From Schmidtea polychroa (lineage: Eukaryota): 64,000 nt of DNA. The stretch is from positions 12,774,001-12,838,000 of the forward strand of contig CM097885.1 in NCBI GenBank assembly GCA_044892525.1, given 5' to 3'. Position 1 is the stretch's first letter. The number at the start of each line of letters is the position of its first letter. The position numbers were made by a program, and so were the translations under genes. The notes under the pieces are model-generated. The model saw only the letters and a list, made by a program, of their open reading frames with translations. It had not been told where the DNA came from and ran no database searches. This document shows positions 24,116 through 58,357 of this stretch, in pieces.

Positions 24116-25118
24116 GAATTTTATTAAATCAGCTCAATTAATGTAAATTAATGGTTTTAAATAAATTGAATTTGTTTTGTATTATTACATATTCTGCAAC
24201 ATAGACAAATTTGTATGTAAATATTCATAAATAAGATTTTGAAATTTTACATTATAATTTTATAAACCATTTACTTTTATTTCTATTTCTAAAATTTGTT
24301 AATTTCCCAAATACAACATACAAAAAGAATATTTTTCAATTAAATCTTTAAATATATCTTTTAAAAAATTCCAAAACATTTTTATTAATTGCAAAGTTTG
24401 GGGATTCCGTTAGATTTTTTTAGGTAATAAATAGTAAATAAATAATCGAAATTAAAACAAGATATTTTCCCAAATAATTTATGTTAACAAACTGACAAAT
24501 GGATTTACATAAATTTTTAAATCAACAAATAAAAATAATTCGTATTCTTTATTGAATTTTACAAAATTAAAATTGAAAATCGATTAAAAAGTTTAAATTT
24601 TAAAATTCATCAATTATAAAAATGTTTTAACATGAATTTATGGAAGAATTTAATCAATAATTTCGATTTCCAATTTTCCCATTATTTGATTGGTCAGCAT
24701 TTTGAAATATTTCAATCAATCAGATATTATCGATTAAATAGTGCTACAAAAATTAAATGCAAATAATTTGATCTTTCATTCATTTTCCGTCATAGATTGA
24801 AATTATGATAAAATTTGATGTTGGAAACTTGACAGATGAATTCGTAAAAATGTCTTGATCCCTAAAGTTGCAACAATAAATTATTTTTAAAAATAAAATT
24901 TAATGAATAATGTTCCACAAACTAATTAAGATGTAATTGATTAATCTATACTTTAAATAATATTTACTGGAAACATTCGAATAATGCAGAATTATATTTA
25001 GAAAAATTTTAAAAAAAACTTTGAAAATTTAATGTTTTGAAATATTTCAAGTCTCGTTTTTCGAGGGTTGCATATATAAAAATAATAAGTACATACAAGT
25101 AGGTAGATAGTGGCGTAC

Positions 25119-25159
25119 GGGAACAATTACCCCCCGGGGGGGGGGGGTAAATTGTTCCC
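25119..25159. other. Subterminal hairpin GGGAACAATTA-Cn-Gn-TAAATTGTTCCC (mirror copy at ~61370-61407)
   Basis: Inverted repeat read directly, about 21 bp inside the terminus. Confidence 0.8.
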
Positions 25160-25229
25160 AACTTTTTATTACGCCATTGTTCCCAACTCATTTTTTTGCT
25201 TTCAGGGATTTTTGGTCCAAATTTTTTTT

Positions 25230-26290
25230 TATTAGACTATAGCGAGGGGGTCCTAGGATTTTCAATACAAAAAAAATTTTTTTAATAGAAAAGGTGGTCT
25301 CAATAAAAAAGCATGGAATTTTCACACTATAGTGATGGGGTCTCTATGGTCCTGGGATTTTCAATACAAAAAAATTTTTTCAATACAAAAACGATGGTCC
25401 TGGGATATACAATACAAAAATCCGACTACCAATAAAAAAGCGTGGATTTTTCACACTATAGTGAGGGGGTCTCGATGGTCCTGAGATTTTCATTACAAAA
25501 TCCGACTACCACTAAAAAAGCATGGAATTTTCACACTATAGTGAGGGGGTCTCGATGGTCCTGGGATTTTCAATACAAAAATCCGACTACCAGTAAAAAA
25601 AGCATGGTAATTTAAGGTCTCAGGATATTTTCAATACAAAAAGGTGGTCTTCAATAAAAAAGCATGGTAATTTAAAGTCTCAGGATATTTTCAATACAAA
25701 AATCCGACTATCACTAAAAAAGCATGGATTTTTCGAATTAAATTAAGGTGGGTCTCTTTGGTCCTGAGAAAAAGGTGGTCTACACTAAAAAACGTGGTAA
25801 ATTTTTCAATTAAAGTAAATTATGGTCAAAATTTTTGAATTACAGTAAATTATGGCTCAAATTTTTGAATTACAGTAAATAATGGTTCTTAAAAATTAAA
25901 TTAAAGTAAATAATGGTCCAAATTTATAAATTAAAGTAAATTATGGTTCTAAAAATTAAATTAAAGTAAATTATGGTTCTAAAAATTAAATTAAAGTAAA
26001 TAATGGTCCAAATTTTTGAATTACAGTAAATAATGGTCCAAATTTTTAAATTAAAGTAAATTATGGTCCTAAAAAATTAAATTAAAGTAAATAATGGTTC
26101 TAAAAAATTAAATTACAGTAAATTATGGCTCAAATTTTAAAATTAAAGTAAATTAAGGTTCTAAAAATTAAATTAAAGTAAATAATGGTCCAAATTTTAA
26201 AATTAAGTAATCAATGGTAAAAAAAATTTAAAATAAGTAAATTAAAGTAATAATTTTTAAATGAGTAAATTAAAGTAAATTAAAGTATGA
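25230..26290. repeat. Subterminal minisatellites: ~79-bp CACTATAGTG-containing units, then ~31-bp TAAATTAAAGTAAATTATGG units
   Basis: Imperfect tandem repeats with copy-number variation against the mirror block (~59870-61295) and against ~1390-2325. Confidence 0.85.
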
Positions 26291-27332
26291 TTTTAAAATT
26301 TATTAACAAAAAGTTGAAATAATAGAAGGTGTTTGAGAATTGAAATTTTTTAATGAAAATTTTAATGAAATAATTTTTTAAGTAATTTTTAATAGACATT
26401 TTTATGGAATAATTTTTTAAGTTCATTTTTAATGGAGATTTTTATGAAATATTTTTCAATGTTAATTTTAGATGGAAATTTTTAAGATAATTTTTAATGA
26501 AAATTTTTTTGAAATATTTTTTAAAGACAAATTTTAATAATAATTCAACAACAAAACAACAACTTAGTACCAACAACCAGTAACTTACGAACATGTATTA
26601 ACAACCAGATACCTACAACTAGTTACTAACAAATAGTTACCTGATAGCAACCAACTAGATACCAAGTACTAACAACCAACATCAACCAGATACCTACAAC
26701 TAGTTACTAACAACTAGTTACCTGCTACCAAGTACATACAACCAACATCAACCAGCTACTAAGCATTATCAACCAACTACTAAGTACCTACAACTAGTTA
26801 CTAACAACCAGTTACCAGATACCAAGTACATACAACTAGGTACTAAGCATTAATTACCAACTACTAAGTACCTACAACAGCCTACCAAGTACATACAACC
26901 AACTAACAACCAGACACTAAGCATTATCAACCAAGTACTAACAACCAAGTAACTTACCTATTACTAAGCACTGTCAACTAGATACCAAACACTTACAACC
27001 AGATGACCACATGAAATTATTGGTTAAATATAAAAATAAGGATTACATTTAGTTGTTAAGTAAATTATATTGTAAAATTAAGAAATAAAGAATAATTAGG
27101 TAAAATAAGGATAAATTAAGGAAAATTAAGGTTCAAAATTTAAAATTAAGTAACCAATGGTTTAAATTTTAAATTAAAGCTAAATGAGTAAATTAAAGTA
27201 ATAATTTTTAAATAAGTAATGTAATAAGTAAATTAAACTAAGATTTTTAAATTTATTATCAAAAGATTGAATAACCACCAACTTTTTTGAGAAATGTAAT
27301 TTATAATGAAAATTTAAATGGAAATTTTAATG

Positions 27333-27420
<88 letters not shown>

Positions 27421-30400
27421 TATAATTATAATAATAATTAAACAGTTACCAACAATCGGTTACTAAATATTTTTAACTAGGTGCTAACAAATACTTTCAA
27501 CATGATATCACGTACTAACTAACTCTCAAACAACCACATACTTACAAATTAACAAATATCAACCTACAACTATATAACAACAATCAGTAAACAACACTGT
27601 ACCAACTACCAAATACAAGATATCAACAACTAGATACCAAGTACCAACAATCAGTTAATAGCAATATAATAGCAAAATAATAACAATTAAATACAAAATA
27701 TTCTTCATCACATACACTATCTTCTTATCAAAATCGAAAAAGTCAACCAACTACTTACAACCTACAACTATGTACTAACAAATTGATCTTTAAAAGAAAA
27801 TGCTCTTCGCCTGAAAATATTGGATGAAAAATTAATTGAACTCAAGGCACTTTTAAGATTTACCAATAACTAGGTAAAAATTGATTAAATTTTTGTAAAA
27901 AAAATTAAATTATTCAAAATATACCAAATAATTATTATAAAAATGTAATTAATGGACAAGAAAAAAATCTAGTCATTAATCATCCAGTAAATAAAAAAAA
28001 ATATTTGATCATTCAAGTTGAATCAACTAAGATAATAAATGAATAAGATAAGATTTAGTAGATAATTGATTTAGATTGAATAAATTAATTGAAATAAAAT
28101 TAATTTTAATTATTTTTTTTAAAAGTAATACATGTACTCAAATTGATTGACTGATTGCTCCAAATATTCAAAAATCAGTATAAATTCATTAAAATTATCA
28201 ATGTCATCAATCTACAATAAAAATAATTATCATTAAATTCCTAAAGAGACTAGAAAACTAACAAACCAGTAAATTCATTTAAATGACAATAATTGGTATA
28301 TCCAAGTGAATTCTCCAATAAAATCATCTAAAATGCATCAAATTTCATATATTCATATATTCACCTCAAACTAATAAGATTCCTTAAAATCCCTTAAATG
28401 ACTATATTTCAACCCTTAATTCATATTATTACAAATATCATCTAAAAAGCATCAAATTTCCTTGAAATAACTCTATCTTTAAAGATTGATATTTTAATGA
28501 TAAATATCCTTAAAAGGTTATATATTTACCTCAGACTAATAAGATTGCTTAAAATCCCCTTTAAATTACTATAATTCTAACTTTAATTCCTATTATCACG
28601 AATATTTTCCTATAAAACATGTAAAATAATTTGGTCATTAACCCTAAAATAATTTATGAAATCTAATGATAAAACCGGTTATAATTAAATTTTTATTCTA
28701 AAAATAAATCACTCTATTTGAAATTTTAAATAAATATTACTACAATATAACTGACTAGGTCCCATTGAAAGATTAAATTTATCCATTCAATTAAATATAT
28801 TTCTTCAAATGATCATTTTTACCGATATTCAACCAATATATTTACTAATTAAAATCAATCGATAGATTTCTTCCAATAAAGATCAATTTTTTTTAGTCAA
28901 TGTTTTAAGTCCATATTTCTAAACTTTTGTCGTTGTCCGTCTAAATAAAGATAAAAATAATTTAAAGTTGATATCAATCCCAATTATCTGTAAAGTTTTC
29001 ATTGTCAAAACCAAGTAAATAGATCATTATCCCTACTTAATAAAACATTGTTCTAAGACATAAATCTAAATTAATTTACTGTGCATTAATCACAACCTAA
29101 TAAAACGATATAATTATTATTGATTCATAAGTGACTAATGTATTGCAATTTCCCTTAAAACATTGATATTTTACCAACATCACCCTTAAAAAATCATATA
29201 TTCCCATCTTAACCTATCCTTCATTAAATTCAATCGACTATATCTCCTTTACAATGATATATTCCTACCTTATCCGATCTCTCATTAAATCTAACCGACT
29301 ATATCTCCCTCAAAAGATCATATTTTCCCATCTTAACCGATCTCTCAGCAAATATTTCTACCCCTTTAAACATCTAGCCGAATATATCCATTAATTCTAC
29401 CCACTTGAATCCTCCTTTAATTCAGTCAATCCTCTTAAAATCATTAGAGAACTTCAAAAATATGACTTAATTGTTATAGACACCAGACATTCTTCCATTG
29501 AAATAATTTAGAAGCTAAATAATAAGAGTTCACTAAAAGATCAAAATTCACTAAAATTTTCTACAAATATTTACCATCAAATACCTAACTGGAAATGATA
29601 TATATTGTTTGATCATAATTCTTCAGCTATTCAACCAATCATTTTCAAGCAATAACAACAAACTAAATTTCTGTATATCCTACAATAATTATCAAGTAAA
29701 TTTAAAGTCCTTGATAAAGTTAACTGGTTTCTTAGCTTATGTTTTCTAAAGATCATCAATGTGTAAATATTCTTAGAAAATTATTTATTCAAATGCATTA
29801 CAAAGTCATCAAAAATTTATTCTATCACTTAATTATTAACCTAATTATCAATGAAATTAATTTTTATTTAAAAACTATTCAATAAAATACAACTAATTAT
29901 CAAGAAATTAATTAAATTTAATTAAATTTATCACCATTAAAACTTTTAATCAGTCAACATGAAATTCTTAGAAAATTGTTCAATATCCTCATAAAAATTT
30001 ATCCTATCACTTGATTATTGTACAAACTCTAATTATTAACCTCGTTGAAAATAATTTTTATTTAAAATTAAAAAACAAGTCAATAAAAATTCATCCAATT
30101 ATCAAGAAATTAATTAAATTTATCTTAGAACTAGCTTTAAATATTCATTCAATAAACATGAAATTTGCAAAAATGATAGATATCCACAAAAAATTACGGA
30201 AATTCATGAAAATATTAGAAATTCACAAAAAATGATGGAAATCCACAAAAAACGATAAAAATTCACAAAAATGATAGAAATTTACTTGAATATTTACTAA
30301 AACCATCAACTCTAAAAGTTATCAATGCCTTAAACAACAAATTTGCCTAAATAATCATTCAAATAAAAGCAATAAATACCTTTATGATCAGTACCCTTGC

Positions 30401-31888
30401 GACATGTTGAATGTGAGTAATACCCTTGTGAGCAATACCCATAGGGGGACAGAATATTTTGTCGGATAAACTCAGAGTATATATTAATTAACTCATTCAA
30501 ATTTATCATTGAATCAGTAAAATTATCATAATTTCGATAAAATTTCTAATGTGGTAAGCAATGTAAAATGAAAAGAGAAATATTCTTTAAACGTTGATAA
30601 AATTAACAATTAAGGGGGGTAAGAATCTTCATTTAAGTGAGGAAATTATTCATTACTCGATGATAAATTCAAATGGGTGAAAATAATTGGTAGAATAATT
30701 CATTAATGGATCATGGGAGGTAAATACTGAGAAGGGGCATAGATAAGATGAAGGTTGATAAGAATGGAAGTATATTAATTGAATTTATTTAAAATTATTT
30801 CATAAAATTCATAAATTTAATAAAAGAAAATCTTAAAACAAATATTTGTGGGGATGTTTTAAGTGAATAATTAATGGAAATTCGGGGGGGGGGGGGTGGG
30901 GGTTATAAGTGATTAAATAATGGAATATTTAAAAATTGGAGGCTATAAGTGAGGAGGATATTTTAAGCTAGTTTATTACATAACAAGCCGTGTCTATTTT
31001 ATTACATAACAAGCTGTGAAAGGTATTTTACCAACATTTTACCAAATTTTTACCTAGTATATAATTTTAATTATATTTTTAAATTGTATATATTTTGAAT
31101 ATCATTCTATTGTTTTATTCCAATAATAAGTTTAAAAAGTCTATAATGATTAATAAATTAATATATTGTTAACATTTATTTGAGAATTTTAAAAAACTTT
31201 ACTTAAATTTTGTAAAGTATTTAATTTTGATTTAATTTTTAAGACAAATATTTGGTTGATAATTTATGATAATTGCTTTTGAAATATTTTAGTGTAAAAT
31301 AGTAAAAGACTTTTTAAAAAAAAATTTACTTTCTATTACCTAATTCCATCACTAAGTTTAAAAAAGTCTAGACTGTTAATAAATCAATTTCTTATTAGTA
31401 GTATGATGTGAGCTCCCCAGAACATGAGCTCCCCGCGACACATATACCCCCTCCCCCCGGGAAAAACTTTTTTTTTAAATTTAATTTTTTGTTTTAATTA
31501 ATTGGTCCAGAGGGCTCACACTTTTTTTCATCCCAAAAATTAATGTTCCCACCAACGGATTTTATTGAACGATACCTCATCTTAAAGCTCAGTCCAAGAC
31601 CTTTCGAATGAGCTATAGGTATCTTATATATCTTTAATAGTTTTAATGTTATTAACAATTGATGACCACCATCTTTTCAATGTTAAATTATTATTATTTT
31701 CCAAAATATTATTAATTGGCCGGGCGGGCTCCTACTTTTTTTCATCCCAAAAGTTATCGTTCCCATTATCCGAATTTATTAATCGATAGCTTATTTTGAA
31801 GCTGAGTCTAAGACCTTTCGATTGAGCCATAGCAGGTATCATCATCATTAACATCGGCAAAGTTATTAATGTTTTCCCGAGACCATTT

Positions 31889-32085
31889 TCAAGGTCATTT
31901 ATTTTTTCAAAATATTATTTTTCAAGGTCACTTATTTTTTTTCAAGGTCATTTATTTTTTTCAAGGTCATTAATTTTTTCAAGGTAAAGGTCATTTTTTA
32001 ATTTAATTTTTTGTTTTAATTAAGTGATCATTTACTTTTTCAAGGTCATTTATTTTTTCAAGGTCATTTAATTTTTCAAGGTCAT
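31889..32085 (+). promoter_or_regulatory. Array of TCAAGGTCA motifs (NR5A/ERR-type monomeric nuclear-receptor site); copies at ~36855-37067, ~48592-48802, ~53594-53789
   Basis: Many exact TCAAGGTCA copies spaced by T-rich linkers. Regulatory function is inference. Confidence 0.5.
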
Positions 32086-34223
32086 ATTTTAAAATTTAAA
32101 TGTACAGAGTTCCCGCCAACAAATATTATTCAACGATAGCTCATTTTAAAGCTCGGTCCAAGACCTTTCGATTGATCCATAGAAGGTATCATCACCATTA
32201 ATATTGACAAAGTTATTAACATTTAACCAAAAATCATTTTCAATGTCATATAATTATTCAAAAATATTATTAAGTGGTCTGGCGGTGACCAGGTTTTCGT
32301 TTGCCCAAAAGTTATCGTTCCCATTATCCGAATTTATTAATTGATAGCTTATTTTGAAGCTTATTGCAAGATCTATCTACTGATGACAAATCTTTCAATG
32401 ATATTTTGCTAAATTACCTTATTATATTATTATTATTTTAATGACTAAATTAACCAATATTCATAAATTGATCGCACAAAATATCCATGTTTTGGTTACT
32501 CAAACATCTTAAATTTCTCGCAAATATATACTACGACCAATGATCATCTCATTAAATAAGCAAATAATTGTAACCCTATATTTCTAACTAATAAGCCCCT
32601 TAATTGGTTAAATGATAACCATGTTTCTATTATGACTCCTTTAATTATTTTTGCCTCAAACAAATTTACTCCAAATGATAAAGAATTTAAAATTATCAAT
32701 GAATATTGACCATGTTTTTTCTCATTTTTAACTATTGTAACGAACATTAGATGAATAAATTACCTTTTGCTTTAAATGACTACAAAGTTAACCAATAAAT
32801 TAGTCGCTCGACATAAGTGTAAATTTACATTTAAAATATTCACGAATTTCTGATCATCTCACTAAATTACCTAAGAATTTCTAACTGATTAATATTGCGA
32901 CATGTTGAATGTGAGTAGTACCCTTGCTAGCAATACCCATAGGGGGACAGAATATTTTGTCGGATAAACTCGGAGTATATGGTCTTTATTGATATATCAA
33001 AATACTGTTATTTATAAATTAACTAAAACATACTCAAAAATACTATATTATTTTACTGAAGGATACCTTAAATGTTTTTAATATACCTATGAAAATAGAA
33101 TTTTTTTGAACAAAAATTAGCGAAATTGAGAACAAGGTGATAACTGAACAAACGATTAGATGGCGATTAACTTCTGGCCACAACCCTAAAAACATGAAAA
33201 TTAAGATTTTAATTATTGAATTCGTTTTTTTCTGCCTGGAAATACTAACAGAATATTTTTTAATTCAAAGAATCTTCATTATAAATTTTTGAATTTAAAA
33301 AATTAAATGAAGGATATATTAAATTTACAATACATAATATTATAATATTATATAAAATTATACTATATAATAATGTTTAAATATGCTTAAATAACTAAAT
33401 TGTTTAAATATTTTTAAATAACTAAATTTAAATTATTTAAATAAACTTTTCATATAACTTTATTTCTTTCGATTTAGTATCCATAAAGTAAGTAAATAAA
33501 GAATTTATTATAATATTTTAATTATTTTACTTAGTAATGAAGAAAATGAATTATGAAGAAGATGAACCAGACAGAATGGTGAAACACTAAAGGACTTATG
33601 TTCTGGATTTAGAGATTTTTTATTAAAACATGAATTATTGGATTATGAAGAAGATGAACCAGACAAAATGGTGAAACACTAAAGGATTTATAGTTCCCGA
33701 TTTCTTAAATGAATTAGCTGATTGTGGGTGTCCTTCAACATGAATGTTTACTTAAATTATGTAAACTTTCTCTCAACGAATGTCAAGAAAAATTGGAAAA
33801 AACCGATGTTTTAGCAATTAAGTACTCGTCATACCTGAAGAATATTATTATTAATGTAAGACATGAATTAATTCTTTAAAATATATTATATTATATTTAG
33901 GTATCTGTGTTTTATGGTGGGAAATGATAAGAAAAAGTATACCACAAATAACAGTTGCCTAATAGTCAGACAGAATTTAATTTGTGATGATAAAATGCTA
34001 GATAATGTAAGTTAATTGCTTTTAAATCAATATAAATTTTAGCAATGATAGTTGACGCAGCATCAGAAACTAAGAAATGCGTCCAATTTGCAAGATGTAT
34101 TCCAAATGGCCCGATGGAGATGATAATTTTGATTACCAACAGAAGAGAGAGAAACCTTTTGTAAATTAAATATAATAGGGTTGGGTGGGTCCTCTTTATC
34201 CCTTAATTAATATATATTTACAA

Positions 34224-34578
34224 GCTGATCGTCGTGGTGGGCGGTTGTAATCCAACTAGTGGGAGGCCTCTGTAAATATATATTTGTGTTAGTGAAAACA
34301 TTAATTAATTTGGTTATAGTGCCAATGACGCATGTATTTTGAAATTATACGTTTCGAATGTGCTGGTAGTTGACTACCCATGCTAGGCGTAATGTTCCGT
34401 ACGGAAAGCTATAATGCCCAGGTTCTTCTGACCCCACTTGGGGGAGGCACAGACGACCCTTGTGGACGCGAACAAATATCCACCGTGTCTTTCAGGCACA
34501 GATATTTGGTCACTGCTCATTAGGCCTGGCAATACTAAATGCATAAACTTTGCCTTGTCCTCTCTTGTCTTGATTTTT
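34224..34578 (+). ncRNA. 7SL/SRP-RNA-like gene (~355 nt): Alu domain and helix 5 present, S domain non-canonical
   Basis: GCT-GATCGTC-gtggtg-GGCGGT-TGTAA-TCC-aactagtg-GGA-GGC matches the register of the metazoan Alu domain (helices 2-4, UGUNR motif). TTTGGTTATAGTGCCAATGACG and GTCACTGC..GCCTGGCAA resemble the two strands of 7SL helix 5. 34283-34294 can pair with 34533-34547. A T5 tract (34574-34578) could be a Pol III terminator. The segment is a GC-rich island in AT-rich DNA. Confidence 0.75.
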
Positions 34579-34885
34579 ATCGTTTAAATATTAAAGTGTG
34601 TGTTATAAGTTTTATTTACTAACCTTAATTAATATACCCTTGCGATATGTTGAATGTGACCAGTACCCTTGCTAGCAATACCCATAGGGGGACAGAATAT
34701 CTTGTCGGATAGACTATGAGTATATACACCCATGTTAAGCAAGGTATGTGTATATAGAATGTATGTATAAAATTATCGCTCCTTATTGACAACTTCCTGT
34801 AAAGGCAAACACAGAATACTGCAAACATACTCTACCCCATAACTTAGTGTGTAAAAATTATTTTAGGTTTTTGACTAATATTTGC

Positions 34886-34972
<87 letters not shown>

Positions 34973-35093
34973 GTTTAATGGATTGTGTATGTATGTAGAC
35001 AATTTTTTAGGTTTTCACTAATATTGATAATAATAATGGTTAATGGATTGTGTGTGTGTGTAAAAATATTTTATGTTTTTGACTAATATTTGC

Positions 35094-35151
<58 letters not shown>
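34886..35151. repeat. (AAT)n microsatellites inside ~100-bp GGATTGTGTATGTGTAGA..AGGTTTTCACTAAT repeats; further (AAT)n tracts at ~27335-27420, ~35894-35972, ~43977-44055 and mirror copies
   Basis: Read directly. The poly-Ile ORFs in the track come from such tracts. Confidence 0.9.
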
Positions 35152-35153
<2 letters not shown>

Positions 35154-35890
35154 GTTTAATGGATTGTGTATGTGTGTAGAAAATATTTTAGGTTTTCACT
35201 AATAATAATAATAGTAATAATAATAATAATAATAACTCCCGCGTGTGTTAATACTTTAAAAGAAAATATTGAAAATTCAAAAATTAATAATAATATTTAT
35301 GCAAAGCATGTGCAATAATTATGTCTTTGTTAAATAAGTCAACCTTAGCGTCAAAATAAGTTTTTAAAATATATTTAAAATACCGCAACGTAATATATTT
35401 TTGTCCTACCCCTTCATTGATTTAAGTTGGTCAGAATTTAATAATAATTTTAATAATAATACTTTGAAATTGTATTTGAAAATAATTTACGACATGTTGA
35501 ATGTGAGTAGTACCTATGTGACCAGTACCTTTATGACCATTACCCTTAGGGGACAGAATATCTTGTCAGATAGATTATATATGATATATGATAATAATAT
35601 TCCCCGCGCACGTAATAATAAATATTAATAATAATAGTAATAATAATAATAATAATAATAATACTTTGAACTTGTATTTGAAAATGTTATGAACTGTGGA
35701 GATGATGAATGTGTTAATAAATTTTAGTTTGAGTGTATATTTAAAGTATAATATTTAGAATTTCTTTGTTAAAGTTTTGTCTTGAATATTTTGATCAGTA
35801 CCTTTGTGAGCAATACCCATGTGACTTGTTGAGTGTGAGTAGTACCCATTGGGGGCAGAATATCTTGTCGGATAGACTAGGAGTATATAG

Positions 35891-35973
<83 letters not shown>

Positions 35974-35975
<2 letters not shown>

Positions 35976-36538
35976 GACCTTGAAAAAATAAATGACCTTG
36001 AAAAAATAAATGACCTTGAAAAAATTAAATGACCTTGAAAAATTAAATGACCTTGAAAAATTAAATGACCTTGAAAAAAAAGATCACTTAATTAAAACAA
36101 AAAATTAAATTAAAAAATGACCTTGACCTTGAAAAATAAATGACCGTGAAAAGTAAATGGCCTTGAAAAAGTAAATGACCTTGAAAAAAAATGATCACTT
36201 AATTAAAACAAAAAAATTAAATGAAAAAATGACCTTGGATGAGTCATCACTATGCGTCATATGACCTTGAGAATGACCTTGGATGAGTCATGCTACCTTG
36301 AAATGACCTTGAAAAAATAAATGACCTTGAAAAAATAAATGACCTTGAAAAAGTAAATGACCTTGAAAAAAAGATCACTTAATTAAAACAAAAAATTAAA
36401 TTAAAAAATGACCTTGACCTTGAAAATAAATGACCTTGATGAGTCATCACGGTGAGTCATATGACCTTGGGAATGACCTTGAAAAAAAATAAATGACCTT
36501 TAAAAAATAATATTTTGAAAAAATAAATGACCTTGAAA
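35974..36538 (-). promoter_or_regulatory. Dense TGACCTTGA array interleaved with AP-1-type TGAGTCA sites (mirror at ~49120-49682)
   Basis: Numerous TGACCTTG(A) copies; TGAGTCA at 36240, 36284, 36440 and 36453; TGCGTCA at 36253. Confidence 0.5.
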
Positions 36539-36575
36539 ATGGTCTCGGGAAAATGTTAATAATTTTGCAAATTAT

Positions 36576-39500
36576 TAAGCTTCAAAATAAGCTATCAATT
36601 AATAAATTCGGATAATGGGAACGATAACTTTTGGGCAAACGAAAACCTGGTCACCGCCAGACCACTTAATAATATTTTTGAATAATTATATGACATTGAA
36701 AATGATTTTTGGTTAAATGTTAATAACTTTGTCAATATTAATGGTGATGATACCTTCTATGGATCAATCGAAAGGTCTTGGACCGAGCTTTAAAATGAGC
36801 TATCGTTGAATAATATTTGTTGGCGGGAACTCTGTACATTTAAATTTTAAAATATGACCTTGAAAAATTAAATGACCTTGAAAAAATAAATGACCTTGAA
36901 AAAAAAGACCTTGAAAAAGTAAATGATCACTTAATTAAAACAAAAAATTAAATTAAAAAATGACCTTTACCTTGAAAAAATTAATGACCTTGAAAAAAAT
37001 AAATGACCTTGAAAAAAAATAAGTGACCTTGAAAAATAATATTTTGAAAAAATAAATGACCTTGAAAATGGTCTCGGGAAAACATTAATAACTTTGCCGA
37101 TGTTAATGATGATGATACCTGCTATGGCTCAATCGAAAGGTCTTAGACTCAGCTTCAAAATAAGCTATCGATTAATAAATTCGGATAATGGGAACGATAA
37201 CTTTTGGGATGAAAAAAAGTAGGAGCCCGCCCGGCCAATTAATAATATTTTGGAAAATAATAATAATTTAACATTGAAAAGATGGTGGTCATCAATTGTT
37301 AATAACATTAAAACTATTAAAGATATATAAGATACCTATAGCTCATTCGAAAGGTCTTGGACTGAGCTTTAAGATGAGGTATCGTTCAATAAAATCCGTT
37401 GGTGGGAACATTAATTTTTGGGATGAAAAAAAGTGTGAGCCCTCTGGACCAATTAATTAAAACAAAAAATTAAATTTAAAAAAAAAGTTTTTCCCGGGGG
37501 GAGGGGGTATATGTGTCGCGGGGAGCTCATGTTCTGGGGAGCTCACATCATACTACTAATAAGAAATTGATTTATTAACAGTCTAGACTTTTTTAAACTT
37601 AGTGATGGAATTAGGTAATAGAAAGTAAATTTTTTTTTAAAAAGTCTTTTACTATTTTACACTAAAATATTTCAAAAGCAATTATCATAAATTATCAACC
37701 AAATATTTGTCTTAAAAATTAAATCAAAATTAAATACTTTACAAAATTTAAGTAAAGTTTTTTAAAATTCTCAAATAAATGTTAACAATATATTAATTTA
37801 TTAATCATTATAGACTTTTTAAACTTATTATTGGAATAAAACAATAGAATGATATTCAAAATATATACAATTTAAAAATATAATTAAAATTATATACTAG
37901 GTAAAAATTTGGTAAAATGTTGGTAAAATACCTTTCACAGCTTGTTATGTAATAAAATAGACACGGCTTGTTATGTAATAAACTAGCTTAAAATATCCTC
38001 CTCACTTATAGCCTCCAATTTTTAAATATTCCATTATTTAATCACTTATAACCCCCACCCCCCCCCCGAATTTCCATTAATTATTCACTTAAAACATCCC
38101 CACAAATATTTGTTTTAAGATTTTCTTTTATTAAATTTATGAATTTTATGAAATAATTTTAAATAAATTCAATTAATATACTTCCATTCTTATCAACCTT
38201 CATCTTATCTATGCCCCTTCTCAGTATTTACCTCCCATGATCCATTAATGAATTATTCTACCAATTATTTTCACCCATTTGAATTTATCATCGAGTAATG
38301 AATAATTTCCTCACTTAAATGAAGATTCTTACCCCCCTTAATTGTTAATTTTATCAACGTTTAAAGAATATTTCTCTTTTCATTTTACATTGCTTACCAC
38401 ATTAGAAATTTTATCGAAATTATGATAATTTTACTGATTCAATGATAAATTTGAATGAGTTAATTAATATATACTCTGAGTTTATCCGACAAAATATTCT
38501 GTCCCCCTATGGGTATTGCTCACAAGGGTATTACTCACATTCAACATGTCGCAAGGGTACTGATCATAAAGGTATTTATTGCTTTTATTTGAATGATTAT
38601 TTAGGCAAATTTGTTGTTTAAGGCATTGATAACTTTTAGAGTTGATGGTTTTAGTAAATATTCAAGTAAATTTCTATCATTTTTGTGAATTTTTATCGTT
38701 TTTTGTGGATTTCCATCATTTTCATGAATTTCCATCATTTTTTGTGAATTTCTAATATTTTCATGAATTTCCGTAATTTTTTGTGGATATCTATCATTTT
38801 TGCAAATTTCATGTTTATTGAATGAATATTTAAAGCTAGTTCTAAGATAAATTTAATTAATTTCTTGATAATTGGATGAATTTTTATTGACTTGTTTTTT
38901 AATTTTAAATAAAAATTATTTTCAACGAGGTTAATAATTAGAGTTTGTACAATAATCAAGTGATAGGATAAATTTTTATGAGGATATTGAACAATTTTCT
39001 AAGAATTTCATGTTGACTGATTAAAAGTTTTAATGGTGATAAATTTAATTAAATTTAATTAATTTCTTGATAATTAGTTGTATTTTATTGAATAGTTTTT
39101 AAATAAAAATTAATTTCATTGATAATTAGGTTAATAATTAAGTGATAGAATAAATTTTTGATGACTTTGTAATGCATTTGAATAAATAATTTTCTAAGAA
39201 TATTTACACATTGATGATCTTTAGAAAACATAAGCTAAGAAACCAGTTAACTTTATCAAGGACTTTAAATTTACTTGATAATTATTGTAGGATATACAGA
39301 AATTTAGTTTGTTGTTATTGCTTGAAAATGATTGGTTGAATAGCTGAAGAATTATGATCAAACAATATATATCATTTCCAGTTAGGTATTTGATGGTAAA
39401 TATTTGTAGAAAATTTTAGTGAATTTTGATCTTTTAGTGAACTCTTATTATTTAGCTTCTAAATTATTTCAATGGAAGAATGTCTGGTGTCTATAACAAT

Positions 39501-41599
39501 TAAGTCATATTTTTGAAGTTCTCTAATGATTTTAAGAGGATTGACTGAATTAAAGGAGGATTCAAGTGGGTAGAATTAATGGATATATTCGGCTAGATGT
39601 TTAAAGGGGTAGAAATATTTGCTGAGAGATCGGTTAAGATGGGAAAATATGATCTTTTGAGGGAGATATAGTCGGTTAGATTTAATGAGAGATCGGATAA
39701 GGTAGGAATATATCATTGTAAAGGAGATATAGTCGATTGAATTTAATGAAGGATAGGTTAAGATGGGAATATATGATTTTTTAAGGGTGATGTTGGTAAA
39801 ATATCAATGTTTTAAGGGAAATTGCAATACATTAGTCACTTATGAATCAATAATAATTATATCGTTTTATTAGGTTGTGATTAATGCACAGTAAATTAAT
39901 TTAGATTTATGTCTTAGAACAATGTTTTATTAAGTAGGGATAATGATCTATTTACTTGGTTTTGACAATGAAAACTTTACAGATAATTGGGATTGATATC
40001 AACTTTAAATTATTTTTATCTTTATTTAGACGGACAACGACAAAAGTTTAGAAATATGGACTTAAAACATTGACTAAAAAAATTGATCTTTATTGGAAGA
40101 AATCTATCGATTGATTTTAATTAGTAAATATATTGGTTGAATATCGGTAAAAATGATCATTTGAAGAAATATATTTAATTGAATGGATAAATTTAATCTT
40201 TCAATGGGACCTAGTCAGTTATATTGTAGTAATATTTATTTAAAATTTCAAATAGAGTGATTTATTTTTAGAATAAAAATTTAATTATAACCGGTTTTAT
40301 CATTAGATTTCATAAATTATTTTAGGGTTAATGACCAAATTATTTTACATGTTTTATAGGAAAATATTCGTGATAATAGGAATTAAAGTTAGAATTATAG
40401 TAATTTAAAGGGGATTTTAAGCAATCTTATTAGTCTGAGGTAAATATATAACCTTTTAAGGATATTTATCATTAAAATATCAATCTTTAAAGATAGAGTT
40501 ATTTCAAGGAAATTTGATGCTTTTTAGATGATATTTGTAATAATATGAATTAAGGGTTGAAATATAGTCATTTAAGGGATTTTAAGGAATCTTATTAGTT
40601 TGAGGTGAATATATGATCTTTAACAAGTACTTATCGATAAGATACTAATCTTAAAAGATAGAGATATTTCAGGGAAATTTGATGCATTTTAGATGATTTT
40701 ATTGGAGAATTCACTTGGATATACCAATTATTGTCATTTAAATGAATTTACTGGTTTGTTAGTTTTCTAGTCTCTTTAGGAATTTAATGATAATTATTTT
40801 TATTGTAGATTGATGACATTGATAATTTTAATGAATTTATACTGATTTTTGAATATTTGGAGCAATCAGTCAATCAATTTGAGTACATGTATTACTTTTA
40901 AAAAAAATAATTAAAATTAATTTTATTTCAATTAATTTATTCAATCTAAATCAATTATCTACTAAATCTTATCTTATTCATTTATTATCTTAGTTGATTC
41001 AACTTGAATGATCAAATATTTTTTTTTATTTACTGGATGATTAATGACTAGATTTTTTTCTTGTCCATTAATTACATTTTTATAATAATTATTTGGTATA
41101 TTTTGAATAATTTAATTTTTTTTACAAAAATTTAATCAATTTTTACCTAGTTATTGGTAAATCTTAAAAGTGCCTTGAGTTCAATTAATTTTTCATCCAA
41201 TATTTTCAGGCGAAGAGCATTTTCTTTTAAAGATCAATTTGTTAGTACATAGTTGTAGGTTGTAAGTAGTTGGTTGACTTTTTCGATTTTGATAAGAAGA
41301 TAGTGTATGTGATGAAGAATATTTTGTATTTAATTGTTATTATTTTGCTATTATATTGCTATTAACTGATTGTTGGTACTTGGTATCTAGTTGTTGATAT
41401 CTTGTATTTGGTAGTTGGTACAGTGTTGTTTACTGATTGTTGTTATATAGTTGTAGGTTGATATTTGTTAATTTGTAAGTATGTGGTTGTTTGAGAGTTA
41501 GTTAGTACGTGATATCATGTTGAAAGTATTTGTTAGCACCTAGTTAAAAATATTTAGTAACCGATTGTTGGTAACTGTTTAATTATTATTATAATTATA

Positions 41600-41633
<34 letters not shown>

Positions 41634-42587
41634 CATTAAAATTTCCATTTAAATTTTCATTATAAATTACATTTCTCAAAAAAGTTGGTGGTTATTCAAT
41701 CTTTTGATAATAAATTTAAAAATCTTAGTTTAATTTACTTATTACATTACTTATTTAAAAATTATTACTTTAATTTACTCCTTTAGCTTTAATTTAAAAT
41801 TTAAACCATTGGTTACTTAATTTTAAATTTTGAACCTTAATTTTCCTTAATTTATCCTTATTTTACCTAATTATTCTTTATTTCTTAATTTTACAATATA
41901 ATTTACTTAACAACTAAATGTAATCCTTATTTTTATATTTAACCAATAATTTCATGTGGTCATCTGGTTGTAAGTGTTTGGTATCTAGTTGACAGTGCTT
42001 AGTAATAGGTAAGTTACTTGGTTGTTAGTACTTGGTTGATAATGCTTAGTGTCTGGTTGTTAGTTGGTTGTATGTACTTGGTAGGCTGTTGTAGGTACTT
42101 AGCAGTTGGTAATTAATGCTTAGTACCTAGTTGTATGTACTTGGTATCTGGTAACTGGTTGTTAGTAACTAGTTGTAGGTACTTAGTAGTTGGTTGATAA
42201 TGCTTAGTAGCTGGTTGATGTTGGTTGTATGTACTTGGTAGCAGGTAACTAGTTGTAGGTATCTGGTTGTATTTACTTGGTATCAGGTAACTGGTTGTTT
42301 GTAACTAGTTGTAGGTACTTGGTATCTGGTAATTGGTTGTAAGTATCTGGTTGTTTGAGAGTTAGTTAGTACGTGGTATCTAGTTGTAAGTACTTGGTAG
42401 CAGGTAACTGGTTGTTTGTAACTAGTTGTAGGTACTTGGTATCTGGTAATTGGTTGTAAGTATCTGGTTGTTTGAGAGTTAGTTAGTACGTGGTATCTAG
42501 TTGTAAGTACTTGGTAGCAGGTAACTGGTTGTTAGTAACTAGTTGTAGGTACTTGGTATCAGGTAATTGGTTGTTAGTAACTAGTTG
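36576..42587 (-). repeat. Arm R1 (inverted arm of unit 1, lacking its outer ~2.1 kb)
   Basis: Directly repeats 53315-59311 and stops at CTAGTTG (42587). Confidence 0.92.
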
Positions 42588-43974
42588 GTTCTAAAAATTA
42601 AATTAAAGTAAATTATGGTTCTAAAAATTAAATTAAAGTAAATAATGGTCCAAATTTTTGAATTACAGTAAATAATGGTCCAAATTTTTAAATTAAAGTA
42701 AATTATGGTCCTAAAAAATTAAATTAAAGTAAATAATGGTTCTAAAAAATTAAATTACAGTAAATTATGGCTCAAATTTTAAAATTAAAGTAAATTAAGG
42801 TTCTAAAAATTAAATTAAAGTAAATAATGGTCCAAATTTTAAAATTAAGTAATCAATGGTAAAAAAAATTTAAAATAAGTAAATTAAAGTAATAATTTTT
42901 AAATGAGTAAATTAAAGTAAATTAAAGTATGATTTTAAAATTTATTAACAAAAAGTTGAAATAATAGAAGGTGTTTGAGAATTGAAATTTTTTAATGAAA
43001 ATTTTAATGAAATAATTTTTTAAGTAATTTTTAATAGACATTTTTATGGAATAATTTTTTAAGTTCATTTTTAATGGAGATTTTTATGAAATATTTTTCA
43101 ATGTTAATTTTAGATGGAAATTTTTAAGATAATTTTTAATGAAAATTTTTTTGAAATATTTTTTAAAGACAAATTTTAATAATAATTCAACAACAAAACA
43201 ACAACTTAGTACCAACAACCAGTAACTTACGAACATGTATTAACAACCAGATACCTACAACTAGTTACTAACAAATAGTTACCTGATAGCAACCAACTAG
43301 ATACCAAGTACTAACAACCAACATCAACCAGATACCTACAACTAGTTACTAACAACTAGTTACCTGCTACCAAGTACATACAACCAACATCAACCAGCTA
43401 CTAAGCATTATCAACCAACTACTAAGTACCTACAACTAGTTACTAACAACCAGTTACCAGATACCAAGTACATACAACTAGGTACTAAGCATTAATTACC
43501 AACTACTATGTACCTACAACAGCCTACCAAGTAAATACAACCAACTAACAACCAGACACTAAGCATTATCAACCAAGTACTAACAACCAAGTAACTTACC
43601 TATTACTAAGCACTGTCAACTAGATACCAAACACTTACAACCAGATGACCACATGAAATTATTGGTTAAATATAAAAATAAGGATTACATTTAGTTGTTA
43701 AGTAAATTATATTGTAAAATTAAGAAATAAAGAATAATTAGGTAAAATAAGGATAAATTAAGGAAAATTAAGGTTCAAAATTTAAAATTAAGTAACCAAT
43801 GGTTTAAATTTTAAATTAAAGCTAAATGAGTAAATTAAAGTAATAATTTTTAAATAAGTAATGTAATAAGTAAATTAAACTAAGATTTTTAAATTTATTA
43901 TCAAAAGATTGAATAACCACCAACTTTTTTGAGAAATGTAATTTATAATGAAAATTTAAATGGAAATTTTAATG

Positions 43975-44056
<82 letters not shown>

Positions 44057-47000: not shown

Positions 47001-49081
47001 ACTAAAACCATCAACTCTAAAAGTTATCAATGCCTTAAACAACAAATTTGCCTAAATAATCATTCAAATAAAAGCAATAAATACCTTTATGATCAGTACC
47101 CTTGCGACATGTTGAATGTGAGTAATACCCTTGTGAGCAATACCCATAGGGGGACAGAATATTTTGTCGGATAAACTCAGAGTATATATTAATTAACTCA
47201 TTCAAATTTATCATTGAATCAGTAAAATTATCATAATTTCGATAAAATTTCTAATGTGGTAAGCAATGTAAAATGAAAAGAGAAATATTCTTTAAACGTT
47301 GATAAAATTAACAATTAAGGGGGGTAAGAATCTTCATTTAAGTGAGGAAATTATTCATTACTCGATGATAAATTCAAATGGGTGAAAATAATTGGTAGAA
47401 TAATTCATTAATGGATCATGGGAGGTAAATACTGAGAAGGGGCATAGATAAGATGAAGGTTGATAAGAATGGAAGTATATTAATTGAATTTATTTAAAAT
47501 TATTTCATAAAATTCATAAATTTAATAAAAGAAAATCTTAAAACAAATATTTGTGGGGATGTTTTAAGTGAATAATTAATGGAAATTCGGGGGGGGGGTG
47601 GGGGTTATAAGTGATTAAATAATGGAATATTTAAAAATTGGAGGCTATAAGTGAGGAGGATATTTTAAGCTAGTTTATTACATAACAAGCCGTGTCTATT
47701 TTATTACATAACAAGCTGTGAAAGGTATTTTACCAACATTTTACCAAATTTTTACCTAGTATATAATTTTAATTATATTTTTAAATTGTATATATTTTGA
47801 ATATCATTCTATTGTTTTATTCCAATAATAAGTTTAAAAAGTCTATAATGATTAATAAATTAATATATTGTTAACATTTATTTGAGAATTTTAAAAAACT
47901 TTACTTAAATTTTGTAAAGTATTTAATTTTGATTTAATTTTTAAGACAAATATTTGGTTGATAATTTATGATAATTGCTTTTGAAATATTTTAGTGTAAA
48001 ATAGTAAAAGACTTTTTAAAAAAAAATTTACTTTCTATTACCTAATTCCATCACTAAGTTTAAAAAAGTCTAGACTGTTAATAAATCAATTTCTTATTAG
48101 TAGTATGATGTGAGCTCCCCAGAACATGAGCTCCCCGCGACACATATACCCCCTCCCCCCCGGGAAAAACTTTTTTTTTAAATTTAATTTTTTGTTTTAA
48201 TTAATTGGTCCAGAGGGCTCACACTTTTTTTCATCCCAAAAATTAATGTTCCCACCAACGGATTTTATTGAACGATACCTCATCTTAAAGCTCAGTCCAA
48301 GACCTTTCGAATGAGCTATAGGTATCTTATATATCTTTAATAGTTTTAATGTTATTAACAATTGATGACCACCATCTTTTCAATGTTAAATTATTATTAT
48401 TTTCCAAAATATTATTATGTGGCCGGGCGGGCTCCTACTTTTTTTCATCCCAAAAGTTATCGTTCCCATTATCCGAATTTATTAATCGATAGCTTATTTT
48501 GAAGCTGAGTCTAAGACCTTTCGATTGAGCCATAGCAGGTATCATCATCATTAACATCGGCAAAGTTATTAATGTTTTCCCGAGACCATTTTCAAGGTCA
48601 TTTATTTTTTCAAAATATTATTTTTCAAGGTCACTTATTTTTTTTCAAGGTCATTTATTTTTTTCAAGGTCATTAATTTTTTCAAGGTAAAGGTCATTTT
48701 TTAATTTAATTTTTTGTTTTAATTAAGTGATCATTTACTTTTTCAAGGTCTTTTTTTTCAAGGTCATTTATTTTTTCAAGGTCATTTAATTTTTCAAGGT
48801 CATATTTTAAAATTTAAATGTACAGAGTTCCCGCCAACAAATATTATTCAACGATGGCTCATTTTAAAGCTCGGTCCAAGACCTTTCGATTGATCCATAG
48901 AAGGTATCATCACCATTAATATTGACAAAGTTATTAACATTTAACCAAAAATCATTTTCAATGTCATATAATTATTCAAAAATATTATTAAGTGGTCTGG
49001 CGGTGACCAGGTTTTCGTTTGCCCAAAAGTTATCGTTCCCATTATCCGAATTTATTAATTGATAGCTTATTTTGAAGCTTA
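42586..49081 (+). repeat. Arm L2 (left arm of unit 2, lacking its outer ~0.85 kb)
   Basis: Directly repeats 25944-32363, starting at TGGTTCTAAAAATT. Confidence 0.92.

Positions 49082-58323: not shown

Positions 58324-58357
<34 letters not shown>

What the first reader, a model, noticed from the sequence alone, without database searches (positions are those of the whole stretch)
34224..34578. 7SL/SRP-like RNA with intact Alu domain but no canonical SRP54 helix as the cargo of the element
Seen: the most GC-rich extended island in the core folds as an SRP Alu domain: helix 2 GCU/GGC, helix 3 GAUCGUC/GGCGGUU, UGUAA, helix 4 UCC/GGA, and complementary loops UGGU/ACUA. Known (recalled human 7SL): GCC-GGGCGCG-GUGGCG-CGUGCC-UGUAG-UCCC-AGCUACUC-GGGA-GGC has the same register with loops UGGC/GCUA, so the differences look compensatory. 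Both helix-5 strands are also recognisable. The middle, however, lacks the GNRA-capped helices 6 and 8 and the CAGG..GNRA..AGCAG SRP54 motif; it has other hairpins instead (34366-34379, 34395-34406, 34431-34442, 34473-34508). Inference: a virus-like DNA element carrying a 7SL-derived RNA that could bind SRP9/14 without SRP54, like BC200/Alu RNAs, and might modulate translation in the way adenoviral VA RNAs do. I am not aware of a description of this in Polinton-like elements.
Basis: partly seen in the sequence, partly recalled or inferred. Interest (0 to 1): 0.9.

Follow-up and report, generated by a model that had tools for sequence, protein, structure and literature searches.

The report
Conserved 7SL-like unit in Maverick derivative
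A stretch of about 430 bases whose start copies the front end of the cell's signal-recognition-particle RNA sits, unusually well preserved, in about 2,000 copies inside a gene-less hitch-hiker of Maverick/Polinton virus-like transposons of an animal genome, which points to a small RNA gene of the hitch-hiker's own, although no RNA has yet been seen.

Summary
Rfam's Metazoa_SRP model matches 34224-34322 (29.6 bits, below the 70-bit cut-off; E 7e-6 locally, 2e-4 over the 18.5-kb unit). Against the host's own 7SL head, 13 of 14 pairs hold and three helix-3 pairs changed on both sides. No S domain is detectable. The claimed helix 5 is not confirmed.

The host has about 300 canonical 7SL genes elsewhere, so this is not its SRP RNA. 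The carrier is one 36.3-kb palindromic, ORF-free insertion (25098-61428). It has a 6-bp duplication and the termini of 17-kb polymerase-bearing Mavericks. The one such Maverick examined lacks the unit.

New here: the stretch 34158-~34589 runs from 66 bases upstream of the Alu 5' end to just past a T5 run. It differs 1.5% between copies, while its flanks differ 8-10%. That fits a polymerase-III-type gene kept by selection.

Expression, SRP9/14 binding and any function remain untested; the public runs were uninformative.

This scan noted the same 7SL head before, on another window of this genome (e1-7879908).

The parts
25092..25097 (.). left target-site duplication CATACA
   Evidence: the same six bases at 61429-61434
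25098..61428 (.). one 36,331-bp gene-less Maverick/Polinton-type insertion, a giant palindrome made of two 18-kb halves
   Evidence: ends 94% inverted; only two terminus motifs in the window; the halves are 99.6% reverse-complementary; no ORF over 100 aa in the standard code and no Pfam hit to a Maverick protein family
25098..26545 (+). terminal region with tandem repeats; the only part shared with a 17.1-kb polymerase-bearing Maverick
   Evidence: 74-91% identity to both ends of L072/L073; terminal 32-mer has 1028 genome matches
26615..32363 (.). left inverted arm of the first half (partner 36576-42354)
32364..36575 (+). unique core of the first half; reverse-complemented at 49082-53314 in the second half
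34158..34589 (+). block under constraint (candidate gene unit: upstream region, RNA, terminator)
   Evidence: 0 differences in 434 bases in 5 copies whose flanks differ 5-10%; 1.5% against 7.9% and 9.5% substitutions in 13 copies chosen by a flank motif
34158..34223 (+). 66-base upstream region, the best conserved part (0.6%); G-rich box 34178-34194 and TA-rich run 34203-34217
   Evidence: sequence; no likeness to the upstream regions of the host's U6 or 7SL genes
34224..34268 (+). 7SL Alu 5' domain (helices 2, 3, 4 and UGUAAU)
   Evidence: 2023 genome matches at 3 mismatches or fewer
34269..34322 (+). AU-rich hairpin that the Rfam model reads as a shortened helix 5
   Evidence: low posterior probability; z 0.14
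34337..34340 (+). internal T4 run, a possible weak polymerase III stop giving an RNA of about 117 nt
34341..34573 (+). body without recognisable SRP S domain; holds hairpins at 34366-34379, 34395-34406 and 34431-34442
34469..34512 (+). the only hairpin clearly more stable than shuffles
   Evidence: -13.2 kcal/mol, z -3.65
34574..34578 (+). T5 run, the likely terminator; constraint ends about 11 bases behind it
51100..51454 (-). second, identical copy of the unit in the other half of the element
   Evidence: head at 51410-51454 on the minus strand
61429..61434 (.). right target-site duplication CATACA

Best explanation
The stretch 34158-~34589 is a small-RNA gene of the polymerase III kind. It is carried by a gene-less, palindromic parasite of Maverick/Polinton elements. 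It consists of a 66-base upstream control region and a transcribed part that starts at 34224. The first 45 bases fold as the Alu 5' domain of 7SL RNA, followed by an AU-rich hairpin and a roughly 230-base body of no known family. It ends at a T5 terminator at 34574-34578, and an internal T4 may also give a product of about 117 nt.

The head descends from a 7SL RNA. The parts that bind SRP19 and SRP54 are gone, so the RNA cannot work in protein targeting. At most it could bind SRP9/14, as Alu, B1 and BC200 RNAs do.

Shown: 7SL ancestry and the kept pairing of the head; strong sequence constraint on exactly this span; absence from the one polymerase-bearing Maverick examined; about 2,000 copies.

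Inferred: transcription, the polymerase used, the RNA ends, SRP9/14 binding, and any benefit to the element (for instance dampening translation or stress responses, in the way adenoviral VA RNA serves its virus).
For: (1) Head homology and structure.

(2) Constraint. In 5 copies taken from the best matches, 34158-34591 has 0 substitutions, while the flanks carry 5-10% plus indels. A sample free of that bias was drawn: 20 copies chosen by a flank motif 700 bases upstream (1767 genome matches; fetched). Of these, 16 hold the head and 13 hold the full unit. The 13 differ from the window at 86 of 5731 aligned sites in the block, against 620 of 7874 upstream and 111 of 1164 downstream. The odds ratio is 0.17 and the nominal p is 4e-77; the copies are related and two look like duplicates.

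(3) The edges of the constrained span match a gene. The left edge is 66 bases before the Alu 5' end. The right edge is about 11 bases after the T5 run. The upstream 66 bases are the most conserved part at 0.6%.

(4) It is not a GC effect: 34640-34740 is as GC-rich (0.43) and is not conserved.

(5) The signals used by the Maverick machinery should be shared with the helper. Yet the only shared DNA is the terminal 1.4 kb, and the 17.1-kb polymerase-bearing copy has no core and no block.

(6) Of 10 differences from the host head, 6 form three double changes that keep pairs and 1 keeps a wobble pair.

(7) Contigs of a run labelled as another organism carry 34158-34578 without a difference, while its flank contigs differ (records 24-29).

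(8) The host's own 7SL also ends in T5 and has no internal T4.
Against: - No RNA evidence at all.
- The upstream 66 bases resemble neither the host U6 nor the host 7SL upstream regions. The TA-rich run lies at -21 to -7, not at the -28 to -20 seen at U6.
- The internal T4 at +114 to +117 could stop polymerase III early.
- The fold is no more stable than shuffles, and helix 5 does not form with the Alu fold.
- One loop base expected (by recall) to make a tertiary pair is changed.
- A subfamily with G14>A and a 17-base deletion (34436-34452) still made up 5 of the 20 sampled copies, so an unaltered RNA is not strictly needed for spread.
- The double changes in helix 3 could have arisen in a foreign host's real 7SL gene before capture.
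- The changes seen inside the body are not compensatory.
- 'Absent from the helper' rests on 1 of 1 copies examined. In addition, no exact head or flank motif was listed inside 11 terminus pairs on the first 33 Mb of C1; copies with mismatches are not in those lists.
Confidence: 0.5

Rival explanations
1. The block is a DNA-level signal of the element rather than a gene for a working RNA. It could be a site for host factors (a TFIIIC or polymerase III site acting as a chromatin barrier that keeps the element from being silenced), or a site used in replication or packaging. The 7SL head would be kept only for its internal promoter boxes.
For: The constraint is seen on DNA and includes 66 untranscribed bases, which are the best conserved part. 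There is no RNA evidence. The body shows no compensatory change and no unusual stability. The unit lies near the middle of the unique core.
Against: The polymerase-bearing partner shares only the terminal 1.4 kb and lacks the block, so this is not a signal read by the shared Maverick machinery. A barrier would need only short boxes, yet 430 bases are kept and the constraint stops just after T5. The pair-keeping double changes in helix 3 point to selection on RNA pairing at some stage.
Confidence: 0.2
2. The unit is a neutral relic. A 7SL-derived piece was captured once, and its low divergence comes from homogenisation between copies (gene conversion, perhaps GC-biased) or from chance in the history of the master copies, not from function.
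For: About 2,000 near-identical copies give ample templates. The block is the GC-richer part. A subfamily with a damaged head loop and a 17-base deletion still spread.
Against: The sharp five-fold drop in divergence has edges at -66 and just after T5. An equally GC-rich flank (34640-34740) is not homogenised. The same contrast holds in copies of several subfamilies and in contigs labelled as a second organism.
Confidence: 0.12
3. The unit is the fossil of a 7SL-derived SINE or retropseudogene that inserted into the ancestor of this element family. On this reading it is an Alu/B1-like retroposon and not cargo in any functional sense.
For: The Rfam model aligns 34224-34322 end to end with 201 central positions skipped, the layout of Alu/B1 monomers. 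A 14-base direct repeat, CCTTAATTAATATA, lies on both sides at 34201-34214 and 34623-34636. A preprint reports automatic 'SINE/7SL' calls in Dugesia planarians (passages seen).
Against: Nine bases separate the left repeat from the Alu 5' end, and there is no A-rich or LINE-type tail. The constrained block starts 43 bases to the left of the repeat. Heads (2023) are about as many as the core flank motif (1767), and 16 of 20 flank-chosen copies hold one, so there is no large population of solo copies. The central skip is a local-alignment device with low posterior probability. This reading would explain origin, not the constraint.
Confidence: 0.1

Closest known systems
Alu, B1, scAlu, 4.5S and BC200 RNAs (7SL-derived polymerase III RNAs of mammals) and hagfish SINE1
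   Same: A 7SL-derived Alu 5' domain at the 5' end without the S domain, in high copy number. The head is followed by a part unrelated to 7SL, as in BC200 and composite SINEs (literature: listings and abstracts of PMC7245038 and PMC13023118; the rest recalled).
   Different: It is spread as part of a DNA element with inverted ends and a 6-bp duplication, not by retroposition. It has no A-rich or LINE-derived tail. It has a conserved 66-base upstream region. The host is a non-vertebrate. By those abstracts, 7SL-derived SINEs are known only from supraprimates, hagfish and shrew mole.
Adenovirus VA RNAs (and herpesvirus EBERs): polymerase III RNAs carried by DNA viruses
   Same: A short, structured RNA unit of polymerase III type inside a DNA element of the adenovirus/Polinton kinship, with no protein product. 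This is a working analogy (recalled).
   Different: There is no sequence or fold likeness. The carrier has no virus genes, and the one polymerase-bearing Maverick examined lacks the unit. Transcription and the PKR-type function are untested.
Metazoan SRP (7SL) RNA, Rfam RF00017
   Same: Positions 1-44 align fully. UGUAAU and helix 4 are identical to the host's gene.
   Different: It scores 29.6 bits against a cut-off of 70. Helices 6 and 8 are missing. The host has its own canonical array.
Non-autonomous Maverick/Polinton derivatives and snap-back (palindromic) defective genomes of protein-primed DNA viruses
   Same: It has the termini and 6-bp duplication of the local Maverick family, no genes, and a giant inverted-dimer build. 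Hallmarks of Mavericks as in the passages of PMC8097293.
   Different: The interior (arms and core, about 33 kb of 36 kb) has no likeness to the helper. It holds a conserved RNA-gene-like unit. The defective-genome comparison is recalled, not tested.

Membership tests
Metazoan SRP RNA (Rfam RF00017) | covariance-model score at or above the gathering cut-off (70 bits) | tested here: not met
   29.6 bits; nothing at gathering; the host genes score 235-241 bits
Metazoan SRP RNA (Rfam RF00017) | Alu 5' domain: helices 2, 3, 4 and the UGUAAU turn | tested here: met
   model positions 1-44 aligned at top posterior probability; 13 of 14 pairs standard
Metazoan SRP RNA (Rfam RF00017) | S domain: helix 8 with GNAR loop and AGCA-type loops (SRP54 site), helix 6 with GNAR loop (SRP19 site) | tested here: not met
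   201 central model positions skipped, and no other SRP-clan match at E<=10. Only an 18-base collinear similarity at E 0.11. The host has both helices.
Metazoan SRP RNA (Rfam RF00017) | helix 5 joining the 5' and 3' ends | tested here: inconclusive
   local low-confidence pairing; pairing of the 3' end conflicts with the Alu fold
Metazoan SRP RNA (Rfam RF00017) | loop-loop tertiary pairs of the Alu domain and SRP9/14 binding | not testable with these tools
   One loop base differs from the host (C to G); its role is recalled. The six-frame search for SRP9 and SRP14 found nothing and is uninformative.
7SL-derived SINE (Alu/B1/SINE1 kind) | 7SL-derived head | tested here: met
7SL-derived SINE (Alu/B1/SINE1 kind) | dispersed solo copies made by retroposition, each with its own target duplication and an A-rich or LINE-derived tail | tested here: not met
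   No A-rich tail. 2023 heads against 1767 core-flank motifs. 16 of 20 flank-chosen copies hold the head in the same place.
7SL-derived SINE (Alu/B1/SINE1 kind) | [quoted passage not shown] | not testable with these tools
   no usable RNA run
Maverick/Polinton element (non-autonomous derivative) | 6-bp target-site duplication | tested here: met
   CATACA on both sides. The comparator copy has TTAGTT. Hallmark as in PMC8097293 passages.
Maverick/Polinton element (non-autonomous derivative) | terminal inverted repeats with AG.../...CT type ends, shared with polymerase-bearing copies | tested here: met
   AGTAGG...CCTACT, 94% inverted. 1028 matches of the terminal 32-mer, typically in pairs 16-18 kb apart. 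PF03175 matches lie inside 5 listed pairs and beside 4 single termini.
Maverick/Polinton element (non-autonomous derivative) | protein-primed polymerase, integrase and capsid genes | tested here: not met
   No ORF over 100 aa in 25098-61428 and no Pfam hit to a Maverick protein family among 57 ORFs. Hence it is non-autonomous. The 17.1-kb comparator has ORFs of 1433, 408, 344 and 338 aa.
Virus-encoded polymerase III RNA (VA RNA kind) | polymerase III transcript made from a virus genome that acts on the host's translation or defence | not testable with these tools
   No RNA data. The carrier has no virus genes, and the polymerase-bearing copy examined lacks the unit.

The most novel reading that the evidence does not exclude
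A gene-less parasite of Maverick/Polinton elements expresses, from about 2,000 loci, its own polymerase III RNA. The RNA is built from a 7SL Alu domain and a new body. It binds SRP9/14 and tunes host translation or stress responses to the element's advantage. This would be a transposon counterpart of adenoviral VA RNA and an independent, DNA-borne invention of an Alu-like RNA outside vertebrates.
Probability: 0.2. Interest if true: 0.85.

Novelty: new variant of a known kind. Interest (0 to 1): 0.6.

Why it matters
By the abstracts seen, 7SL-derived repeated RNAs are known only as retroposed SINEs of a few vertebrate lineages. Small polymerase III RNAs are known from DNA viruses, but none turned up for Mavericks/Polintons in the four literature searches made here.

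A 7SL-headed, selectively kept unit carried by a DNA element would link the two themes. It would show that even a gene-less hitch-hiker of a virus-like transposon can own a product. It would also give planarian-type genomes, where RNA interference is routine, a directly testable case: one northern blot or one total-RNA library decides it.

If the unit is not expressed, it is still a clean example of strong constraint on a non-coding block inside a parasite of a parasite.

Tried and rejected
- RNA runs. No RNA holder is listed. Four runs were laid as contigs only. The depth of the block in the two runs guessed to be RNA fits collapsed high-copy DNA as well as RNA. One 603-base contig runs from about 190 bases upstream of the Alu 5' end to 34597. 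Nothing can be said about expression, ends or strand.
- SRP9 (PF05486) and SRP14 (PF02290) six-frame searches of the genome found no match. The controls did not ring either, so this is uninformative.
- Promoter by likeness. The upstream regions of the host's U6 array and 7SL array show no shared motif with 34158-34223.
- Covariation across copies is not possible. The block is nearly invariant, and the few changes are private or subfamily changes that do not compensate.
- Relatives elsewhere. There were 0 matches of a head motif in viral contigs and 0 matches of a body motif and of a head motif in metagenome contigs. Nothing was found by sequence in this scan's notes.
- A diverged family inside this genome. 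The motif after 34471 with another base gave 2 matches. The loop variant of the 34485-34499 hairpin gave 10 matches. Three of those were fetched: two are old copies (93%), and one (L076) shares only about 75 bases of the body at 75-78% with no Rfam match.
- Ciliate code. It gives many ORFs in this AT-rich DNA. It was dropped because the genome is a metazoan's with standard-code transposase and polymerase ORFs.
- Coding role of the block. The longest open frame in it is 66 aa on the minus strand. Not pursued.
- The flip-flop idea for the core was rejected as a need. The second half is simply the reverse complement of the first.
- The test for an 'empty site' of the 14-base repeat was not run.

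Full report
WHAT WAS CLAIMED. It described an intact Alu domain, both strands of helix 5 and no SRP54-binding helix. It read this as the cargo of a Polinton-like element that might act like Alu/BC200 or adenoviral VA RNA.

THE GENOME AND ITS OWN SRP RNA. The window lies on contig C1 of a 781-Mb assembly. Most of the matches listed across the genome searches lie on contigs C1 to C4. The window is about 25% G+C. The genome is a metazoan's: Rfam's Metazoa_SRP model finds canonical genes of 235-241 bits in a tandem array with a 593-base period on C2, plus one on C178. A motif of the canonical type matches 318 times, nearly all in that array. One of these genes aligns to the model over its full length, with helix 6 (GGAG loop) and helix 8 (GAAA loop, GCAGG) in place. 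The window's sequence is therefore not the host's SRP RNA. From size, base composition and the spread of matches over those contigs I suspect a planarian. That is inference only and nothing rests on it.

THE ALU DOMAIN IS REAL.
- At the gathering cut-off Rfam reports nothing in the window.
- With E-value thresholds, Metazoa_SRP matches 34224-34322 with 29.6 bits. E is 7.2e-6 on 601 bases and 2.2e-4 on the whole 18.5-kb unit, where it is the only match under E 0.1.
- Model positions 1-44 align at top posterior probability. The 201 central positions are skipped. A short AU-rich hairpin (34269-34322) is read as a stump of helix 5 at low posterior probability.
- The head differs from the host's at 10 of 45 positions. 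Six of these form three double changes in helix 3 that keep the pair (G-C to A-U, A-U to U-G, A-U to C-G). One keeps a wobble pair in helix 2. Three lie in loops.
- 13 of 14 pairs are standard in both sequences. With the partners slid by 1-3 columns no double change is seen. With two rows the shuffle control is weak (65 of 500).
- One loop change (host C36 to G) hits a base that, by my recollection of the human Alu-domain structure, makes a tertiary pair. 'Intact' therefore holds for the secondary structure only.

WHAT IS NOT THERE.
- No SRP-clan model matches 34323-34578 at E<=10.
- The host 7SL against the unit gives the head (E 2.8e-7) and one collinear 18-base similarity around CCCAGGTT (E 0.11), which is no more than a hint.
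The free fold pairs the pyrimidine-rich 3' end with the GGGAGG that the Alu fold needs. With the Alu fold enforced, no terminal helix forms.
- The fold energy is ordinary: z -1.16 for the 355 nt and +0.49 for the head. Of the hairpins only 34469-34512 stands out, with z -3.65.
- There is a T4 run at 34337-34340 and a T5 run at 34574-34578. The host 7SL gene ends in T5 and has no internal T4.

THE CARRIER.
- Repeats show two 18-kb halves that are reverse complements of each other (28353-41632 against 57340-44024, 99.6%). Each half has inverted arms (26615-32363 and 36576-42354) around a unique 4.2-kb core, 32364-36575.
- The unit lies in the core. Its twin is at 51100-51454 on the minus strand.
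- The outer ends are at 25098 and 61428. They are 94% inverted, start AGTAGG and end CCTACT. They are flanked by a perfect 6-base duplication, CATACA.
- The window holds only these two termini. All 36,331 bases are therefore one insertion.
- In the standard code it has no ORF over 100 aa. None of the 57 ORFs scanned hits a Maverick protein family.
- Six-base duplications, inverted ends and (AGT)2//(ACT)2-type end motifs are the stated marks of Mavericks (passages of PMC8097293).
- The terminal 32-mer has 1028 genome matches at 3 mismatches or fewer, typically as plus/minus pairs 16-18 kb apart.
- Matches to the protein-primed polymerase family PF03175, in open frames of up to 1484 aa, lie inside five of the listed pairs and beside four single termini on C1.
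- One such copy was fetched (17.1 kb). It has its own 6-base duplication (TTAGTT) and ORFs of 1433, 408, 344 and 338 aa. It is like the window's element only over 25097-26545, at 74-91% identity.
- So the element is a gene-less derivative that borrows the ends of the local Maverick family. Its interior, unit included, is foreign to the one helper copy examined.

COPY NUMBER AND PLACE. The 45-base head has 2023 genome matches at 3 mismatches or fewer. A 35-base motif of the core 700 bases upstream has 1767. The reversed-pattern controls give 0. Heads mostly come as minus/plus pairs 5-8 kb apart, where the core itself is part of the inverted arms. There is thus no large population of solo, SINE-like copies.

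THE NEW RESULT: THE WHOLE UNIT IS UNDER CONSTRAINT.
- In five copies of other subfamilies the core is 5-10% different from the window's and full of indels. Yet 34158-34591 has no substitution at all: one copy has a 1-base deletion and two differ at 34592.
- Those copies came from the best matches to the block itself. I therefore drew 20 further copies by the flank motif alone.
- Four of these lose homology before the unit. Three are cut or deleted inside it. Thirteen hold it whole.
- In these 13 the block 34158-34603 differs from the window at 1.5% of aligned sites (86 of 5731). The figures are 7.9% upstream (620 of 7874) and 9.5% downstream (111 of 1164). The 66 bases before the Alu 5' end are the best kept (0.6%). 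The rate rises again between 34579 and 34603 (5.2%, with indels).
- The nominal Fisher p of 4e-77 overstates the case, because the copies are related and two look like duplicates of each other.
- An equally GC-rich flank (34640-34740) is not spared.
- Contigs of a run labelled as another organism carry 34158-34578 without a difference, next to diverged flanks.
- The constrained span thus runs from -66 to just past the T5 run, which is the outline of a small gene with an upstream promoter and a polymerase III terminator.

WHAT SPEAKS AGAINST A WORKING RNA.
- No RNA was seen. The runs on offer were contigs of unrecorded library type.
- The upstream region is unlike those of the host's U6 and 7SL genes.
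- The T4 run may stop transcription early.
- A subfamily with G14 to A in the head loop and a 17-base deletion in the body made up 5 of the 20 sampled copies.
- The changes inside the body do not compensate.
- The double changes in helix 3 may predate capture, if the head came from another host's 7SL.

READING. Best (0.5): a polymerase-III-type gene for a chimeric RNA with a 7SL Alu head and a new body, owned by a parasite of Mavericks and kept by selection. Binding of SRP9/14 and any effect on translation are inference by analogy with Alu, B1 and BC200 RNAs.

Rivals:
- A DNA-level signal such as a TFIIIC-type chromatin barrier (0.2).
- A neutral relic homogenised by conversion (0.12).
- The fossil of a retroposed 7SL SINE (0.1). 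This is suggested by a 14-base direct repeat at 34201-34214 and 34623-34636. It is weakened by the 9-base gap to the Alu start, the missing tail, and a block that begins 43 bases left of the repeat.

NOVELTY. Four full-text searches found no paper linking 7SL or polymerase III RNAs with Mavericks/Polintons. By the abstracts listed, 7SL-derived SINEs are known from supraprimates, hagfish and shrew mole. This scan had already noted the 44-base head in this genome (e1-7879908). The present work agrees on head, copy number and carrier. It adds the constraint on the full unit, its edges, the host array, the element's ends and the absence from the one helper copy examined.

Noticed in passing
window 25098-61428: The carrier is a single 36.3-kb insertion built as a palindrome of two 18-kb halves, each itself arm-core-arm. 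The core has opposite orientation in the two halves. The centre (42586-44982) repeats the subterminal region 25944-28346 directly but lacks the terminal 850 bases. This looks like an inverted dimer (snap-back) of a defective genome.
   Followed up: partly
L002-L008 (G000:C2:31.93-31.99 Mb) and L071 (C2:142.94 Mb): The host's canonical 7SL genes form a tandem array with a 593-base period (about 300 copies by a motif count). Its U6 genes form an array with a 793-base period.
   Followed up: partly
window 34436-34452 and 34237, seen in L050-L054: A subfamily of the element carries G14 to A in the Alu loop, a 17-base deletion that removes the CCCC/GGGG hairpin, and five shared substitutions. It still made up 5 of 20 copies sampled.
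   Followed up: partly
window 34438-34471 (run X6): In a run labelled as another organism, contigs about 50 times deeper than the unit share only these 34 bases and run on into different but related sequence on both sides. This is a diverged sister family of the unit that this genome lacks (2 and 10 pattern matches).
   Followed up: partly
L076:385-460 (G000:C4:38.51 Mb): A lone locus shares only about 75 bases of the body (34431-34503) at 75-78% identity. It has no Alu head nearby and no Rfam match. The inner stem of the 34485-34499 hairpin is kept, and the outer stem differs but can still pair.
   Followed up: partly
window 34201-34214 and 34623-34636: An exact 14-base direct repeat, CCTTAATTAATATA, lies on both sides of the unit. 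It could be an old target duplication or chance in AT-rich DNA.
   Followed up: no
window 25131-25148 and 61384-61400: Each terminus holds a C-run directly followed by a G-run about 35 bases from the end. The run lengths vary between ends and copies.
   Followed up: no
window 23088-23984 (-): An open 298-aa ORF with an ISXO2/IS1595-type DDE transposase domain (PF12762, E 6e-13) lies just outside the element.
   Followed up: partly
window 10253-10591 (-), 12727-13526 (-), 22155-22529 (+): There is a caveolin exon (PF01146, E 2e-23), remnants of a Tc5/pogo-type transposase (DDE_1, HTH_Tnp_Tc5) and a hAT dimerisation domain remnant.
   Followed up: no
window 32624-32705: This is a second, shorter invariant stretch (82 bases) of the core among six copies of different subfamilies. 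Its meaning is unknown.
   Followed up: no
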